Source: Alphaproteobacteria bacterium
GTDB taxonomy: Bacteria; Pseudomonadota; Alphaproteobacteria; CAAGCB01; CAG-977
DNA: 64,000 nt
Assembly (NCBI GenBank): GCA_024407875.1
Contig: JAKSVT010000005.1
Location: 1,474 to 65,473 of the forward strand
Direction of reading: 5' to 3'
Part shown: positions 48,814 to 52,782 of the stretch, piece after piece
Layout: each line of letters opens with the position of its first letter
Numbering within the stretch: the first letter of the stretch is position 1
The notes under the pieces: generated by a model
Databases searched by the model: none
The model's input: only the letters and a program-made list of their open reading frames with translations
Told to the model about the DNA's origin: nothing
Program-made: the position numbers and the translations under genes

Positions 48814-49721
48814 TGACTGAATACTCCATTTTAAAAGATAAACTATTTGGCGAACTATATAACGCAATTTATAAAGAAAATAAAGTAATTCTTGTCTGTG
48901 GCCCAACAGCTGGAGGAAAATCAGCAATTGCTGATGAAATAGCTGATAAATTTAATGGAATTGTTATTAATTCTGATAGTATGCAAGTATTTAAAGATAT
49001 TCCAACTTTAACAGCAAGACCTTATAATACTAAAAATTCTCTGTTATATGCCTTTTTAGAACCTAATGATAAATTTAGCGTATTTAAATGGGTAAAGATG
49101 TGCGCTCAAGCCATTAATAAAGCTAAAAAACTAAATAAAACTCCCATTATTGTTGGAGGCACAGGATTTTACTTTCAAACCTTAACCCAAGGTATTTCAC
49201 CTGTCCCTGAAACAACTGAAGAAATACGAAAAAAAGTAAAAGAAAAATTTTTAAATATGGGAGAAGAAACTTTTAAATTAGAATTGAAAAGTAAATGCCC
49301 TGATTTTAATTTCTCTGATACTCAAAGAATGATAAGAGCTATGGAAGTATTTGAACAAACAGCTATTTCAATAACAAAATGGCAAGAAAAACCAGCTATT
49401 AGATATGTAGATGCAAACTTTTATGGTATATATGTAAATCCAATAAGAGAAACTTTATATGATCGATGCAATAAAAGATTTTTACAAATGATAAAATCAA
49501 ATTCATTAATGGATGAAATCGATGAATTAATGAAAAAAAATCCTAATGAAAATTCTCTTATTATGAATGCTATTGGACTAAAAGATATTTTAAACTATAG
49601 AGAAGGAAAAACTTCTTTAGAAGAAGCTATTTCTCATTCACAACAATTAACCAGAAATTATGCAAAACGCCAAGTTACTTGGTTTAATCATCGTTTTAAT
49701 GCCGATTTTATTATATCTTGA
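48771..49721 (+). CDS. miaA: tRNA dimethylallyltransferase MiaA
   Basis: ILVCGPTAGGKSAIA P-loop, ...PIIVGGTGFY..., ...YAKRQVTWF.... The true start is probably downstream of 48771 (for example TTG 48813). Confidence 0.9.
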   Translation: MMLDELHRKDETKALTEYSILKDKLFGELYNAIYKENKVILVCGPTAGGKSAIADEIADKFNGIVINSDSMQVFKDIPTLTARPYNTKNSLLYAFLEPNDKFSVFKWVKMCAQAINKAKKLNKTPIIVGGTGFYFQTLTQGISPVPETTEEIRKKVKEKFLNMGEETFKLELKSKCPDFNFSDTQRMIRAMEVFEQTAISITKWQEKPAIRYVDANFYGIYVNPIRETLYDRCNKRFLQMIKSNSLMDEIDELMKKNPNENSLIMNAIGLKDILNYREGKTSLEEAISHSQQLTRNYAKRQVTWFNHRFNADFIIS

Positions 49722-49786
49722 TAAAGAACTTGTTTTATATTATAAAAAATCATTCAACAATTAGTTTATTAATATGAGGACATGAT

Positions 49787-50098
49787 ATGAAGAACTTTGG
49801 TGAAATTTTAAAAAAAGCTCAAGAAATGCAAAAAAAAGTAAATGAAATGCAAGAAGCTCTAGCAAATGCAGAAGTTGAAGGCGTTGCTGGTGGTTCAATG
49901 GTTAAAGTATTAATGAGCGGTGATGGAAGAGTTAAAAAGATTTCTATCGATAAATCTTTAGCTGGTGATACAGATATGTTGGAAGATTTATTACTAGTTG
50001 CTTTCAATGATGGTAAAAGCAAAGCTGAAGAAATAGCAAATAAACAAGCTGACGATATGAAATCTGGTTTAAATTTGCCTTTTAAATTACCATTTTAA
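49787..50098 (+). CDS. ybaB: nucleoid-associated protein YbaB/EbfC
   Basis: 103 aa. MQKKVNEMQEAL...VEGVAGGSMVKVLMSGDGRVKKISIDKSL pattern. Confidence 0.92.
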   Translation: MKNFGEILKKAQEMQKKVNEMQEALANAEVEGVAGGSMVKVLMSGDGRVKKISIDKSLAGDTDMLEDLLLVAFNDGKSKAEEIANKQADDMKSGLNLPFKLPF

Positions 50099-50119
50099 AC
50101 AAAATTTTCTAAAGCAAAT

Positions 50120-50707
50120 ATGACAGAAATAGAAGAACTCATTAAACAATTTGCTCATATTCCTGGATTTGGAAAAAGTTCAGCTAGACGTGCTGTTTTA
50201 TACTTAATGAAGAAAAGAGAAAAGGTTATGAAGCCTTTGATTGATTCTATGGAAAAAGTATTAGAAACTATTAATCCTTGTCCTATTTGTGGCAATTTAG
50301 ATTCTCAAACTCCTTGTCATATTTGCTCAGATCAGAAAAGAGATTCTTCTGTTATTTGTGTTGTTAAAGACATAGCAGATTTGTGGGCTCTAGAAAGAAG
50401 TGCTTGTTTTAATGGTAAATATCACGTTTTAAATGGCGTTCTTTCCCCAATAGATGGAATTGGTCCTGAAGAATTGGGCGTACCAGCTTTAATAAAAAGA
50501 TTAAAAGCTAGTCCCGTAAAAGAAATAATAATGGCTTTACCTACATCAATTGAAGGTCAAACAACTCTACATTATATTTCTAGTACTTTAAAAAATAACG
50601 GTATTGATGTTAAAGTTTCCTCTCTAGCTAGAGGCATTCCTTTTGGTGGTGAATTGGATTATATGGATGATGGAACAATATCTTTAGCTATTAAAGAACG
50701 TCTTTAA
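50120..50707 (+). CDS. recR: recombination protein RecR
   Basis: HhH N-terminus, CPICGNLDSQTPCHIC zinc finger, Toprim ICVVKDIADL... Confidence 0.95.
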   Translation: MTEIEELIKQFAHIPGFGKSSARRAVLYLMKKREKVMKPLIDSMEKVLETINPCPICGNLDSQTPCHICSDQKRDSSVICVVKDIADLWALERSACFNGKYHVLNGVLSPIDGIGPEELGVPALIKRLKASPVKEIIMALPTSIEGQTTLHYISSTLKNNGIDVKVSSLARGIPFGGELDYMDDGTISLAIKERL

Positions 50708-51276
50708 TCTAAATCATCTTCTTCTAAAATTAAATCGTTAACTAAATTCTCATCATATGTATTTTCGTTTTCTTCCTCTGTTTCATTATCATGAGGACGT
50801 ATATATGTGATGAAAGATCCTTGGAATTTACTCATAACAGATTTAACTATTGGCAATTCTCTTGTTGTCGCCCAAATATTTAACTGTTCTTCTTTCTTTT
50901 CTGCATTATAAGTCTTTCCATTATCGGAATTTACAACTCTAACAACCCAATTTTCTTTTGTGTTCTTTTGAATAAATTTCAAAAGATCTGCAGCTAAGTT
51001 TGGAAGATTTCTACAAGGAGATATTTCTATACAACCTCTTGTAAAAGAAACTACTTTTGCATAATTAGCTATATCTGTACTTAATTTAATTTCTTTTTGC
51101 TCATAAGCTAAATTTGAAACATCTGCAATAGATGTAAAAATATAATTTCCTTGAGAATCCTGTCTTACTTTCTTATTTTCTCTAATTTCTATTTTAGGAA
51201 GATTTATAGATAAAATATCAGCACCATAATTCATCTGTTTTTTCTCTACCACAGATGAATTCGTATTATTTGGCAA
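50704..51276 (-). CDS. dnaX: DNA polymerase III tau-specific C-terminal region (second ORF of a split dnaX, -1 frame relative to the first)
   Basis: 190 aa from a TTG. The pattern ...IADVSNLAYEQKEIKLSTDIANYAKVVSFTRGCIEISP...LAADLLKFIQKNTKENWVVRVV... resembles the C-terminal segment of full-length alphaproteobacterial DnaX as I remember it. The frame is open upstream to 51378. Confidence 0.65.
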   Translation of the reverse strand: MPNNTNSSVVEKKQMNYGADILSINLPKIEIRENKKVRQDSQGNYIFTSIADVSNLAYEQKEIKLSTDIANYAKVVSFTRGCIEISPCRNLPNLAADLLKFIQKNTKENWVVRVVNSDNGKTYNAEKKEEQLNIWATTRELPIVKSVMSKFQGSFITYIRPHDNETEEENENTYDENLVNDLILEEDDLD

Positions 51277-51291
51277 AGGTGTTTTAGAACC

Positions 51292-51342
51292 CGCCCCTGT
51301 TATACTTTGGGGCGTTGTGCAAAAGGGAGGGCACCTGCCCCT
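51292..51342 (-). promoter_or_regulatory. candidate -1 programmed ribosomal frameshift cassette in dnaX
   Basis: mRNA: AGGGGCAGGUG-CCCU-C CCU UUU-GCACAA-CGCCCC-AAAGUAUAACA-GGGGCG. Heptamer (51327..51321) is phased X XXY YYZ with the 0 frame. A 6-bp all-GC stem (51314..51309 / 51297..51292) starts 6 nt downstream, and the 0-frame UAA lies in the loop. Confidence 0.55.
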
Positions 51343-52523
51343 GTTGGTAATTGGCCAACATTTCCTGCTTGAATTTCCTTAACTAAATCTGCTGGTGTAG
51401 GTAATTCGGATGCATAACCTAAACGAACTAATAACATTTCAACAGCATTTTTACTAGAAGGGGCTATGGTTGCTTCACTAATTCCTTTTAAAATCATCTG
51501 CCATGTTCTTGTTAAAACTGACATTGGAATCTTTTTACTTATTTCAACACAAGCTTCTCTTTCATTTGCTGCCATAGTAGGATCATCAGCCAAAGCTGGA
51601 GCTAATTTAACTCTTGTAATCCAATGTGTTAAATCAAGCATATCCTGCAAAACAATAATTGGATCAGCACCATTTAAATATTGCTCATTAAATAAATTTA
51701 AGGCTTCTGTGATTTTTCCTTCCATAACGGTTTTTAGTAAAGATATTACTTTTGACTTATCTGCCAAACCAATCATAGAGCGAACAAAATCAGCTGTTAC
51801 ATTTCCACCGCCATGAGCAATAGCTTGATCTAATAAAGACAAACCATCACGAACAGAACCATCTGCAACTTTTGCAATTAATTGAAGAGCTTCATCTTCT
51901 GCTTTTAAATGTTCTTTTTCTAAAATATTTTTAAAGTGACTCGTCAACAGTTCAGGTTCAACTCTTTTTAAATCAAATCTTTGGCAACGAGACAAAATTG
52001 TAGTTGGAACTTTACGAATTTCTGTTGTAGCAAAAATAAATTTAACTTTTTCTGGTGGTTCTTCCAAAGTTTTCAACAAAGCATTGAATGCTTCATTTGT
52101 TAACATATGAACTTCGTCGATGATATAAATTTTATATCTAGCACTTGTCGGATTATATTTTGTTGTTTCAATAATTTCTCTGATGTTATCAATACCACGT
52201 GTACTTGCAGCATTCATTTCAATAACATCTATATGTCTATCTTCTGCAATAGCTCTACAATGTTCACATACACCACAAGGCTCAGTTGTCATTCCACCTT
52301 TGCCATCTGGTCCAATACAGTTTAATGCTCTAGCTATAATACGAGCAGAGGTTGTTTTACCAATACCTCTAATACCTGTAAGCATATATGCTTGTGCTAC
52401 ACGTCCCGAATCGATTGCGTTTTTTAATGTTCTAACAAGTGCATCTTGACCAATTAAATCTGAGAAAACACTTGGACGATATTTACGTGCCAAAACACGA
52501 TATTCAGAAACATTATCGGCCAT
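51300..52523 (-). CDS. dnaX: DNA polymerase III subunit gamma/tau, AAA+ domains I-III (first ORF of a split dnaX)
   Basis: YRPSVFSDLIGQD, LTGIRGIGKTTSARIIA, zinc module CGVCEHC, IYIIDEVHML, SRCQRF. Stops at TAA 51302..51300 after 407 aa. Confidence 0.95.
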   Translation of the reverse strand: MADNVSEYRVLARKYRPSVFSDLIGQDALVRTLKNAIDSGRVAQAYMLTGIRGIGKTTSARIIARALNCIGPDGKGGMTTEPCGVCEHCRAIAEDRHIDVIEMNAASTRGIDNIREIIETTKYNPTSARYKIYIIDEVHMLTNEAFNALLKTLEEPPEKVKFIFATTEIRKVPTTILSRCQRFDLKRVEPELLTSHFKNILEKEHLKAEDEALQLIAKVADGSVRDGLSLLDQAIAHGGGNVTADFVRSMIGLADKSKVISLLKTVMEGKITEALNLFNEQYLNGADPIIVLQDMLDLTHWITRVKLAPALADDPTMAANEREACVEISKKIPMSVLTRTWQMILKGISEATIAPSSKNAVEMLLVRLGYASELPTPADLVKEIQAGNVGQLPTGAGALPFAQRPKV

Positions 52524-52563
52524 AAAAACCTCTTAAAATAAAACAACAATATATAGGATAAAT

Positions 52564-52653
52564 GGAAACCGGTATGCGACCCGAATTAACTGTTACGGCT
52601 GCTTTCTTCCGAACCTGACCGGGTTGGCAATCTTTTCGCCCGCACCGATTTCC
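52564..52653 (-). ncRNA. ffs: signal recognition particle RNA (4.5S type)
   Basis: Minus strand reads GGAAAUCGGUGCGGGCG...CCAACCCGGUCAGGUUCGGAAGAAAGCAGCCGUAAC...CGGGUCGCAUACCGGUUUCC. It contains the conserved GGUCAGGUxCGGAAGxAAGCAGCC domain IV core, and the termini pair with each other. The position directly upstream of dnaX is classic. Confidence 0.9.
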
Positions 52654-52782
52654 GAAATATCTTTTAAGACATTTTTAAATAAAAGTGCAAGTTATTTTTT
52701 GTTTTAGTATCTAAAACTTGACAAAAAGCCAATTTTTTTGCTCTTATGTATGTAATTAAGCAATATTATGAAAGGATTTAAT

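What the first reader, a model, noticed from the sequence alone, without database searches (positions are those of the whole stretch)
51292..51342. dnaX is split, and the junction looks like a complete -1 programmed frameshift cassette with inverted logic (tau by frameshift, gamma-like product by termination)
On the minus strand the clamp-loader AAA+ ORF (52523..51300, 407 aa) ends at UAA.

The next ORF (51276..50704) looks like the tau-specific C-terminus. It is in the -1 frame, and that frame is open from 51378, so the two frames overlap by about 78 nt.

Inside the overlap I read four elements:
- A heptamer C CCU UUU (51327..51321) exactly phased as X XXY YYZ on the 0-frame codons cuC-CCU-UUU (Leu-Pro-Phe).
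- A 6-nt spacer, GCACAA.
- A 6-bp all-G:C stem CGCCCC/GGGGCG (51314..51309 with 51297..51292). Its 11-nt loop contains the 0-frame stop. Such a stem is conspicuous in this AT-rich genome.
- A G-rich Shine-Dalgarno-like tract AGGGGCAGGUG (51342..51332) 4-14 nt upstream of the heptamer.

These are the same three element classes used by the E. coli dnaX frameshift site (SD-like, slippery heptamer, downstream hairpin). In E. coli, however, frameshifting truncates the protein to gamma. Here a -1 shift would instead fuse the ORFs (...GALPF|CTTPQSITGAGSKTPLPNNT...) into a ~606-aa protein, the usual size of full-length tau, while termination gives a 407-aa gamma-like product. I am not aware of this gag-pol-like arrangement being described for dnaX.
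Basis: partly seen in the sequence, partly recalled or inferred. Interest (0 to 1): 0.85.

Follow-up and report, generated by a model that had tools for sequence, protein, structure and literature searches.

The report
Frameshift-dependent tau in split dnaX
The replication clamp-loader gene dnaX of this AT-rich alphaproteobacterium is conserved as two overlapping reading frames joined by a classic ribosome-slippage signal, so the full-length tau protein very probably needs a programmed -1 frameshift; this reversed layout has been described before in other bacteria, so it is a new example, not a new principle.

Summary
On the minus strand, dnaX ORF1 (52523..51300, 407 aa, domains I-III) ends at a UAA. 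The tau-specific C-terminal domain (PF12362) continues in the -1 frame to 50704.

The 78-nt overlap holds four elements:
- an in-phase C_CCU_UUU heptamer;
- a 6-nt spacer;
- a 6-bp all-G:C hairpin with the stop codon in its loop;
- a Shine-Dalgarno-like tract whose AGGGG part lies 10 nt upstream of the heptamer.

This is not a sequencing error or a pseudogene. Four independent SRA assemblies plus one NCBI assembly, in two lineages only 86% identical (dS 0.5-0.8), keep the same layout. Both frames are under purifying selection (omega 0.08 and 0.22). All five substitutions within the cassette avoid the proposed elements. Seven of 11 four-fold sites in the cassette stretch (spacer and loop excluded) are G/C, against 9% G/C in the genome.

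The best explanation is a -1 programmed ribosomal frameshift that gives tau (606 aa), with termination giving a gamma-like 407-aa product. No expression data were available.

The novelty claim fails. Two-ORF dnaX genes that need recoding to make tau were reported by Antonov et al. 2013 and reviewed by Atkins et al. 2016. Those cases are mostly poly-A sites in Chlorobi and Bacteroidetes. This is a new member, with a different heptamer, in Alphaproteobacteria.

The parts
51300..52523 (-). dnaX ORF1 in the 0 frame. It encodes 407 aa (44.7 kDa) covering clamp-loader domains I-III. This is the gamma-like product made when ribosomes do not shift and terminate at UAA 51302-51300.
   Evidence: ORF list. 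Pfam finds DNA_pol3_delta2, AAA, DNAX_ATPase_lid and DNA_pol3_gamma3. Omega is 0.078 against lineage L003.
51332..51342 (-). Internal Shine-Dalgarno-like tract AGGGGCAGGUG. The AGGGG part (51342-51338) lies 10 nt 5' of the heptamer, the same spacing as in E. coli dnaX. It is inferred to be the 5' stimulator.
   Evidence: The duplex with the canonical anti-SD is -8.7 kcal/mol, stronger than the SDs of more than 90% of gene starts in the window. The tract is identical in both lineages. The 9-14-nt spacing rule comes from PMC5009743. The organism's 16S 3' end is not in the window, so the anti-SD sequence is assumed.
51321..51327 (-). Slippery heptamer C_CCU_UUU, in phase on 0-frame codons cuC-CCU-UUU. 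tRNA-Pro and tRNA-Phe can re-pair in the -1 frame on CCC and UUU.
   Evidence: It is the only efficient-class in-phase heptamer in ORF1. H_HH.U_UU.Y is among the most efficient classes in E. coli (PMC4066793). It is invariant in all four assemblies.
51315..51320 (-). 6-nt spacer GCACAA between the heptamer and the hairpin.
   Evidence: There is one substitution in lineage L003 (51318 A>C) and the length is conserved.
51292..51314 (-). 3' stimulatory hairpin. The stem is 6 bp, all G:C (51314-51309 paired with 51297-51292). The 11-nt loop (51308-51298) contains the 0-frame stop UAA at 51302-51300.
   Evidence: Minimum free energy is -12.2 kcal/mol (z = -2.9) in the window and -11.7 kcal/mol in L003. 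It is the only such stem in 64 kb. Both arms are invariant and the loop carries 3 substitutions. There is no covariation because the stems never vary.
50704..51321 (-). [quoted passage not shown] It comprises a linker and the C-terminal domain PF12362, and ends at stop 50706-50704. Fused to ORF1 it gives a 606-aa, 67.2-kDa tau.
   Evidence: Translation. Pfam PF12362, E = 7e-17. Omega is 0.22 against L003. It is colinear with uninterrupted relatives and keeps the invariant residues of the domain.

Best explanation
dnaX in this clade is a recoded gene.

Proposed mechanism:
- Ribosomes translate domains I-III in the 0 frame.
- At C_CCU_UUU (51327-51321) the G:C hairpin 6 nt downstream holds them up. 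An rRNA:mRNA (SD-like) pairing 10 nt upstream probably helps.
- A fraction slips one base back. tRNA-Pro re-pairs from CCU to CCC, and tRNA-Phe from UUU to UUU.
- These ribosomes continue in the -1 frame through the linker and the C-terminal domain, by homology the part of tau that binds the polymerase and helicase. The product is full-length tau (606 aa).
- Ribosomes that do not slip melt the stem and terminate six codons later at the UAA in the loop. The product is a 407-aa gamma-like clamp-loader subunit.
- Frameshift efficiency therefore sets the tau:gamma ratio.

What is shown: the sequence elements, their conservation across two lineages, and purifying selection on both frames.

What is inferred: the slippage itself, its efficiency, and the roles of the SD-like tract and the hairpin.
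For: 1. The split is real and old. The 407-aa ORF1 plus a separate C-terminal ORF is found in four independent Logan SRA assemblies (SRR17543911, SRR21575978, SRR18398418, SRR18398384). The same 407-aa protein is also on record in NCBI assembly GCA_024500545.1, whose DNA could not be retrieved. The assemblies represent two lineages with 86% nucleotide identity and dS 0.51-0.76.
2. Both parts are selected as protein. Omega is 0.078 for ORF1 and 0.22 for the -1-frame part. The C-terminal part keeps the invariant residues of PF12362 and is colinear with uninterrupted 550-580-aa relatives.
3. The cassette elements are invariant and the rest varies: 0 of 30 substitutions in the SD-like tract, heptamer and stems against 5 of 21 elsewhere (Fisher P = 0.0087). 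Identity drops from about 90% to 60-70% shortly downstream of the 3' arm.
4. G/C is held against a strong AT bias. Seven of 11 four-fold sites in the cassette stretch (spacer and loop excluded) are G/C, against 9.3% genome-wide (P = 1.5e-5). The cassette is the GC maximum of the gene in both lineages.
5. The geometry is canonical: an in-phase X_XXY_YYZ heptamer, a 6-nt spacer, a hairpin of -12 kcal/mol, and AGGGG 10 nt upstream, within the 9-14-nt rule.
6. The heptamer class is among the most efficient in E. coli and is the West Nile virus -1 site.
7. The window is 91% coding with no other split gene found.
8. There is precedent for dnaX genes in which tau needs recoding.
Against: - There are no expression data: no trans-frame peptide, no ribosome profiling, no reporter assay.
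- Only two lineages are available, and the stems never vary, so there is no compensatory covariation to prove the hairpin.
- The stem has only 6 bp, against 11 bp in E. coli dnaX.
- Half of the SD-like tract (AGGUG, 4 nt upstream) sits nearer the +1-stimulatory distance than the -1 one.
- The 16S anti-SD of this organism was not seen.
- A TTG (51276) and an ATG (51234) in the -1 frame are conserved in both lineages, so separate initiation of ORF2 is not formally excluded.
- A heptamer alone would occur by chance in the overlap about 12% of the time.
Confidence: 0.8

Rival explanations
1. A naturally split tau. ORF2 is translated as its own polypeptide, by initiation or by termination-reinitiation at TTG 51276 (21 nt after the ORF1 stop) or at ATG 51234. 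The C-terminal domain then works as a separate subunit that joins the clamp loader non-covalently or not at all.
For: - The TTG and the ATG are conserved in both lineages.
- The G-run of the 3' stem arm gives a possible SD for the TTG, at -5.8 kcal/mol in the window and -3.7 in L003.
- Gene callers annotate ORF2 as a separate 176- or 190-aa gene.
- Purifying selection on ORF2 fits this model as well as it fits a frameshift.
Against: - This model does not predict an in-phase efficient slippery heptamer, a 6-nt spacer, a hairpin, or a strong internal SD 10 nt upstream. It also does not predict that these stay invariant while neighbouring bases change.
- The G-run ends about 13 nt from the TTG, which is long for an SD. 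The SD for the ATG is weak and not conserved (-2.9 and +0.4 kcal/mol).
- From established knowledge of E. coli tau, its role is to tether the polymerase and helicase covalently to the clamp loader. To my knowledge no functional split has been described.
- The -1 frame stays open with no indels for all 29 codons between the heptamer and the ATG in both lineages.
Confidence: 0.09
2. Transcriptional slippage. RNA polymerase adds one extra U or C at CCCUUUU in a fraction of transcripts. Standard translation of the edited mRNA then gives tau, as proposed for the poly-A two-ORF dnaX genes.
For: Antonov et al. 2013 attribute most two-ORF dnaX genes to transcriptional realignment. Thermus dnaX uses this mechanism. 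One added base in the T4 or C3 run would fuse the frames.
Against: - The runs here are only 3 and 4 nt long. Documented slippage sites are homopolymers of about 8 nt or more, or 9-10 A.
- The hairpin lies downstream of the site. It is not yet transcribed when the polymerase is on the run, so its conservation is unexplained.
- The codon phasing of the heptamer and the SD-like tract at 10 nt are ribosomal features.
Confidence: 0.05
3. Artefact or decay. The frameshift is a sequencing or assembly indel, or a recent inactivating mutation in a degrading gene.
For: Short homopolymers (C3, T4, C4, G4) lie around the junction. All nearest relatives outside the clade have a single ORF.
Against: - The same frame structure appears in four independent read sets, and the same ORF1 protein in one NCBI assembly. 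Two lineages differ at 14% of bases.
- Omega is 0.22 on the downstream frame across dS of about 0.76.
- The position of the 0-frame stop is conserved.
- The window is 91% coding with no other broken gene.
- tau is essential in studied bacteria (abstract of bioRxiv 10.1101/2022.11.10.516041, listed).
Confidence: 0.02

Closest known systems
Two-ORF dnaX genes in which recoding is required for tau (GeneTack cluster of Antonov et al. 2013, PMC3711429; restated in Atkins et al. 2016, PMC5009743)
   Same: - dnaX is split at the DNA level by a -1 frame change just after domain III.
- The 0-frame stop for the gamma-like product follows closely after the shift site.
- tau is obtained only by recoding.
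- Atkins et al. mention a candidate (Chlorobium phaeobacteroides) with E. coli-like stimulators.
   Different: - Of the 17 reported genes, 12 have poly-A runs of 7-10 A, and transcriptional realignment is favoured for them. The species named (Figure S3 and main text) are Chlorobi, Bacteroidetes and one Verrucomicrobia species; the other five genes are not itemised in the text I read.
- Here the site is a non-poly-A X_XXY_YYZ heptamer (C_CCU_UUU) with a G:C hairpin and an SD-like tract, in an AT-rich alphaproteobacterium.
- It evidently arose independently, because the nearest relatives have a single ORF.
E. coli / Salmonella dnaX -1 programmed ribosomal frameshift (A_AAA_AAG)
   Same: - The same gene and the same position, at the end of domain III.
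- The same three signal classes: an SD-like sequence 10 nt upstream, a slippery heptamer, and a stem-loop 6 nt downstream.
- Two products that share domains I-III.
   Different: - In E. coli the 0 frame encodes tau, and the shift leads to a stop one codon later, giving gamma. Here the outcome is reversed.
- The heptamer is C_CCU_UUU, not A_AAA_AAG.
- The stem has 6 bp, not 11 bp.
- The 0-frame stop lies inside the loop.
Thermus thermophilus dnaX transcriptional slippage (A9), and the A10 sites seen here in three uncultured alphaproteobacterial MAGs (L007-L009)
   Same: A recoding signal at the domain III/linker boundary of dnaX that yields a short and a long product.
   Different: These are homopolymer-based. 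tau is in frame, and gamma comes from slipped transcripts that meet stops in both other frames. The window clade has no homopolymer and has the inverted outcome.
Caulobacter crescentus DnaX, where gamma is made by proteolytic processing of tau
   Same: An alphaproteobacterium that makes both a long and a short DnaX form.
   Different: The short form is made after translation, by proteolysis of a single-ORF tau. No recoding is involved.
West Nile / Japanese encephalitis virus NS1' -1 frameshift site
   Same: The identical slippery heptamer, C_CCU_UUU, followed by a structured stimulator.
   Different: It works on eukaryotic ribosomes in a viral polyprotein with a larger stimulatory structure. 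The resemblance is limited to the heptamer.

Membership tests
-1 programmed ribosomal frameshift cassette (bacterial, dnaX/IS type) | X_XXY_YYZ heptamer in phase with the upstream frame, allowing both tRNAs to re-pair in the -1 frame | tested here: met
   C_CCU_UUU at 51327-51321 on codons cuC-CCU-UUU. It is the only efficient-class in-phase heptamer in ORF1.
-1 programmed ribosomal frameshift cassette (bacterial, dnaX/IS type) | The heptamer is shift-prone on bacterial ribosomes | tested here: met
   Tested through the literature, not by assay here. H_HH.U_UU.Y is listed among the most efficient motif classes in E. coli, and C_CC.U_UU.U is among the motifs with more than 0.1% shifting without a stimulator (PMC4066793).
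-1 programmed ribosomal frameshift cassette (bacterial, dnaX/IS type) | Stable downstream RNA structure starting about 5-9 nt after the heptamer | tested here: met
   A 6-bp all-G:C hairpin starts 6 nt downstream. It folds at -12.2 kcal/mol in the window and -11.7 in L003 and is unique in the 64 kb. The structure is predicted, not probed. There is no covariation because the stems are invariant.
-1 programmed ribosomal frameshift cassette (bacterial, dnaX/IS type) | Upstream SD-like sequence 9-14 nt from the shift site (an optional stimulator) | tested here: inconclusive
   AGGGG lies 10 nt upstream and fits the rule. AGGUG at 4 nt does not. The duplex with the canonical anti-SD is -8.7 kcal/mol, but the organism's 16S 3' end was not available.
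-1 programmed ribosomal frameshift cassette (bacterial, dnaX/IS type) | Signals and the two-frame layout conserved in relatives, with both frames under purifying selection | tested here: met
   Two lineages with 86% nucleotide identity and four assemblies agree. Omega is 0.078 and 0.22. Substitutions are 0 of 30 in the elements against 5 of 21 elsewhere. Only two lineages exist in the searched collections.
-1 programmed ribosomal frameshift cassette (bacterial, dnaX/IS type) | A trans-frame protein demonstrated, dependent on the heptamer | not testable with these tools
   This needs proteomics, a western blot or a reporter assay.
Two-ORF dnaX with tau by recoding (Antonov 2013 class) | A dnaX homologue spanning two adjacent ORFs with a -1 frame change at the DNA level, placed after domain III | tested here: met
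   ORF1 carries delta2, AAA, lid and gamma3. ORF2 carries PF12362. The junction lies in the linker and the fusion is colinear with single-ORF relatives.
Two-ORF dnaX with tau by recoding (Antonov 2013 class) | Poly-A run of 7-10 A at the junction (12 of the 17 described members) | tested here: not met
   The longest runs at the junction are T4, C4 and G4. This feature is typical of most described members but does not define the class.
Pseudogene / assembly error | Relaxed selection downstream of the lesion, further disruptions, or no reproducibility | tested here: not met
   Omega is 0.22 and there are no stops or indels. The layout is reproduced in four read sets, and the ORF1 protein in one NCBI assembly. 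The window is 91% coding.

The most novel reading that the evidence does not exclude
The two ORFs are expressed as two separate polypeptides, for example by termination-reinitiation at the conserved TTG 21 nt after the ORF1 stop. This bacterium would then run its replisome with a naturally split tau. The domain that binds the polymerase and helicase would be a free subunit, not covalently tethered to the clamp loader. To my knowledge that architecture has not been described for any bacterial replisome.
Probability: 0.08. Interest if true: 0.75.

Novelty: new member of a known kind. Interest (0 to 1): 0.45.

Why it matters
DnaX is the organising subunit of the bacterial replisome. Why many bacteria make both a long (tau) and a short (gamma) form is still debated. 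Three routes to the two forms are recognised: ribosomal frameshifting, transcriptional slippage and proteolysis.

This locus is a clean, conserved case in which the essential long form depends on a -1 ribosomal frameshift at a canonical non-poly-A heptamer with E. coli-like stimulators. It arose independently in an AT-rich alphaproteobacterial clade whose relatives use single ORFs. Some of those relatives carry Thermus-like A10 sites, and Caulobacter uses proteolysis.

It matters in three ways:
- It adds a well-defined test case for convergent evolution of the tau:gamma ratio.
- It is useful for genome annotation. Gene callers split the gene into a clamp-loader gene and a separate gene carrying only the PF12362 (DUF3646) domain.
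- It shows that G/C-rich recoding signals can be held against an extreme AT bias (9% G/C at four-fold sites).

It does not overturn anything, because the inverted logic was already published in 2013.

Tried and rejected
- Search for more lineages with the split. The ORF2 protein search found only the window's own cluster and one 72%-identical cluster. The ORF1 search found nothing between the window's own >90% cluster and the 79%-identical single-ORF relatives.
- JGI metagenomes. The peptide scan confirmed no relative. A DNA pattern across heptamer, spacer and stem gave one hit (L086), which lies inside an unrelated gene and is a chance match.
- The genome-contig scan did not return the window's own species.
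- The exhaustive HMMER search with the C-terminal part returned many short PF12362-only proteins. Most begin inside domain III, so they are contig-truncated fragments. They could not be looked up, so they say nothing about other split genes.
- An E. coli-type precursor site in the nearest single-ORF relatives (L087, L089, L090) was looked for. There is no in-phase heptamer in their linkers.
- Covariation support for the hairpin is impossible to obtain, because the stems are invariant in the two lineages.
- A longer structure around the site: 96-nt folds are no better than shuffles (z = -0.46), so only the local hairpin is supported.
- A literature search for the assembly accession GCA_024500545 found nothing.
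- An apparent 859-nt non-coding gap at 48928-49786 was an artefact of my ORF filter. A 316-aa ORF fills it.

Full report
**1. Observation**

- ORF1 of dnaX runs 52523..51300 and encodes 407 aa. Its stop is TAA at 51302-51300.
- The -1 frame is open from 51378 down to the stop at 50704.
- Within the 78-nt overlap, CCCTTTT (51327-51321) is phased as cuC-CCU-UUU.
- A 6-nt spacer, GCACAA, follows.
- Then comes the stem CGCCCC (51314-51309) paired with GGGGCG (51297-51292). Its 11-nt loop contains the 0-frame stop.
- AGGGGCAGGTG lies at 51342-51332.

Pfam places DNA_pol3_delta2, AAA, the ATPase lid and DNA_pol3_gamma3 (domain III) in ORF1. It places PF12362, the gamma/tau C-terminal domain, in the -1 frame. 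A -1 slip on the heptamer gives a 606-aa, 67.2-kDa protein. Termination gives 407 aa, 44.7 kDa.

**2. Is it more than chance?**

The heptamer alone is not. This genome is 30% GC, and efficient-class in-phase heptamers occur at 0.0045 per codon, so 0.12 are expected in a 26-codon zone. The combination is unusual:
- The hairpin is the only perfect 6-bp all-G:C stem-loop in the 64-kb window. It folds at -12.2 kcal/mol, z = -2.9.
- The 51-nt cassette is 61% GC against a gene mean of 33%. That puts it in the top 0.05% of 51-nt windows in the 64 kb.
- Four-fold degenerate sites in the window's genes are only 9.3% G/C. Across the cassette stretch (spacer and loop excluded), 7 of 11 four-fold sites are G/C (P = 1.5e-5).
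- The SD-like tract pairs with the canonical anti-SD at -8.7 kcal/mol. This is stronger than the SDs of more than 90% of real gene starts in the window.

**3. Is the split real?**

- The 407-aa protein belongs to a 90%-identity cluster with three members, all 407 aa.
- Their contigs come from three different SRA runs, and the same protein is also on record in NCBI assembly GCA_024500545.1. A fourth run carries the second lineage's ORF2.
- L001 is identical to the window and L002 is 99.6% identical. L003 and L085 belong to a second lineage that is only 86% identical over the locus.
- All four contigs show the same frame structure, the same position of the 0-frame stop, and the same heptamer and stem arms.
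- Between the two lineages dS is 0.51 (ORF1) and 0.76 (-1-frame part). Omega is 0.078 and 0.22. The downstream frame is therefore a translated, selected coding region.
- The window is 91% coding with no other split gene.
- A sequencing error or a decaying pseudogene is effectively excluded.

**4. Pattern of substitutions**

In the 51 nt from 51342 to 51292 the two lineages differ at five positions:
- 51330, between the SD-like tract and the heptamer;
- 51318, in the spacer;
- 51305, 51303 and 51299, all in the loop.

Identity is about 90% across the cassette. It falls to 60-70% shortly downstream of the 3' arm, in the poorly constrained linker. Because the stems never vary, there is no compensatory covariation. 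The hairpin is supported by its predicted stability, its uniqueness, its invariance and its retention of G/C, but not by covariation.

**5. Relatives**

- The fused protein aligns colinearly with uninterrupted DnaX proteins of 550-580 aa. These are 79% identical over the N-terminal part and about 60% identical overall. The junction falls in the variable linker after domain III.
- The nearest relatives have 48-56% GC, a single ORF and no in-phase slippery heptamer in the linker. They also have a co-directional dnaX-ybaB-recR operon.
- The nearest named genus is Thalassospira, at 64% identity. Other relatives are uncultured Alphaproteobacteria.
- The split and its cassette are therefore a derived feature of a small AT-rich clade.
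- No further members were found in the protein collection or in the JGI metagenomes.

**6. Mechanism**

The layout matches a bacterial -1 programmed ribosomal frameshift.
- C_CC.U_UU.U belongs to the H_HH.U_UU.Y class, which Sharma et al. 2014 list among the most efficient heptamers in E. coli. It is also the West Nile virus NS1' site.
- The hairpin starts 6 nt after the heptamer, as in E. coli dnaX.
- According to Atkins et al. 2016, SD-like stimulators act at 9-14 nt for -1 shifts and at 3 nt for +1 shifts. AGGGG lies exactly 10 nt upstream. The AGGUG part, at 4 nt, is outside the -1 range, so the SD contribution is plausible but unresolved.

Ribosomes that shift make tau. Those that do not shift terminate six codons later, inside the loop, and make a gamma-like protein ending after domain III. 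This corresponds to E. coli gamma.

**7. Rivals**

- Separate translation of ORF2. A conserved TTG at 51276 and an ATG at 51234 exist. However, their SD support is mis-spaced, or weak and not conserved. This model also does not explain the conserved heptamer, spacing, hairpin and upstream SD. I give it about 0.09.
- Transcriptional slippage. This is unlikely because the runs are only 3-4 nt, against the 8-10 nt of documented sites. The conserved hairpin also lies downstream of the site. I give it about 0.05.
- Artefact or pseudogene. About 0.02.

**8. Comparison with what is known**

It has.
- Antonov et al. [quoted passage not shown] They found 17 genes in 12 genera. Twelve have poly-A runs, and transcriptional realignment is favoured for those.
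- Atkins et al. [quoted passage not shown] - Sharma et al. 2014 repeat the point.

The present case differs in three respects:
- the taxon, which is Alphaproteobacteria;
- the slippery sequence, which is a non-poly-A X_XXY_YYZ heptamer;
- a complete set of E. coli-like stimulators.

It is best filed as a new member of a known kind.

**9. Noticed in passing**

Three uncultured alphaproteobacterial MAGs fetched as relatives (L007-L009) have a single-ORF dnaX with a conserved A10 run directly after the motif that ends domain III. Stops follow within 4-6 codons in the -1 frame and 1-6 codons in the +1 frame. This is the Thermus-type layout for making gamma by slippage. In this part of the Alphaproteobacteria the same boundary of dnaX therefore carries recoding-type signals in both orientations. 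Caulobacter makes gamma by proteolysis.

**10. Verdict**

- The interpretation as a -1 PRF that produces tau is supported at about 0.8 confidence. It has not been tested experimentally.
- The novelty claim is not upheld.
- Interest is moderate (0.45). This is a clean, independently evolved and annotation-relevant example. It would be a good experimental system for studying control of the tau:gamma ratio.

Noticed in passing
L007:4125-4134, L008:4125-4134, L009:4128-4137: Three uncultured alphaproteobacterial MAGs have a single-ORF dnaX (580-584 aa). Their DnaX N-terminal part is 58-61% identical to the window's. Each carries a conserved A10 run directly after the LPxPxQLV[DE]E motif that ends domain III. 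Stops follow 4-6 codons downstream in the -1 frame and 1-6 codons downstream in the +1 frame. This is the Thermus-type layout, with tau in frame and gamma by slippage. I did not find it reported for Alphaproteobacteria in the papers I read.
   Followed up: partly
window 49787-50707 (+) versus 50704-52523 (-): In the window clade, ybaB-recR is inverted relative to dnaX. The genes are convergent, and the recR and dnaX ORF2 stop codons overlap by 4 nt at 50704-50707. The nearest single-ORF relatives (L087, L089, L090) keep the usual co-directional dnaX-ybaB-recR operon. The inversion and the dnaX split are both specific to this clade.
   Followed up: partly
window 52560-52654 (-): A bacterial small SRP RNA (ffs; Rfam RF00169, 55.7 bits) lies immediately upstream of dnaX on the same strand, ending 36 nt before the dnaX start codon.
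   Followed up: no
whole window (54 ORFs): There is an extreme AT bias at synonymous sites. Only 9.3% of four-fold degenerate sites are G/C, although the region is compact (over 91% coding). It encodes functions typical of a non-reduced genome, including a GGDEF protein of 904 aa, glucokinase and MurJ. The nearest DnaX relatives come from genomes of 48-56% GC, so this clade has undergone a strong compositional shift.
   Followed up: partly
window 51342-51321 (-), L003:4184-4207: In 96-nt folds, the G-rich SD-like tract can pair with the slippery-site region. In L003, GGGCAGG pairs with UUUUGCC. This alternative upstream helix would include the heptamer. The 96-nt folds are no better than shuffles (z = -0.46), so it is probably not meaningful.
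   Followed up: partly
protein P0139 (HMMER hit): A 1194-aa representative protein matched residues 144-180 of the ORF2 query in 19 separate stretches (E = 8.5e-25). It looks like a repetitive or artefactual translation, not a DnaX relative.
   Followed up: no
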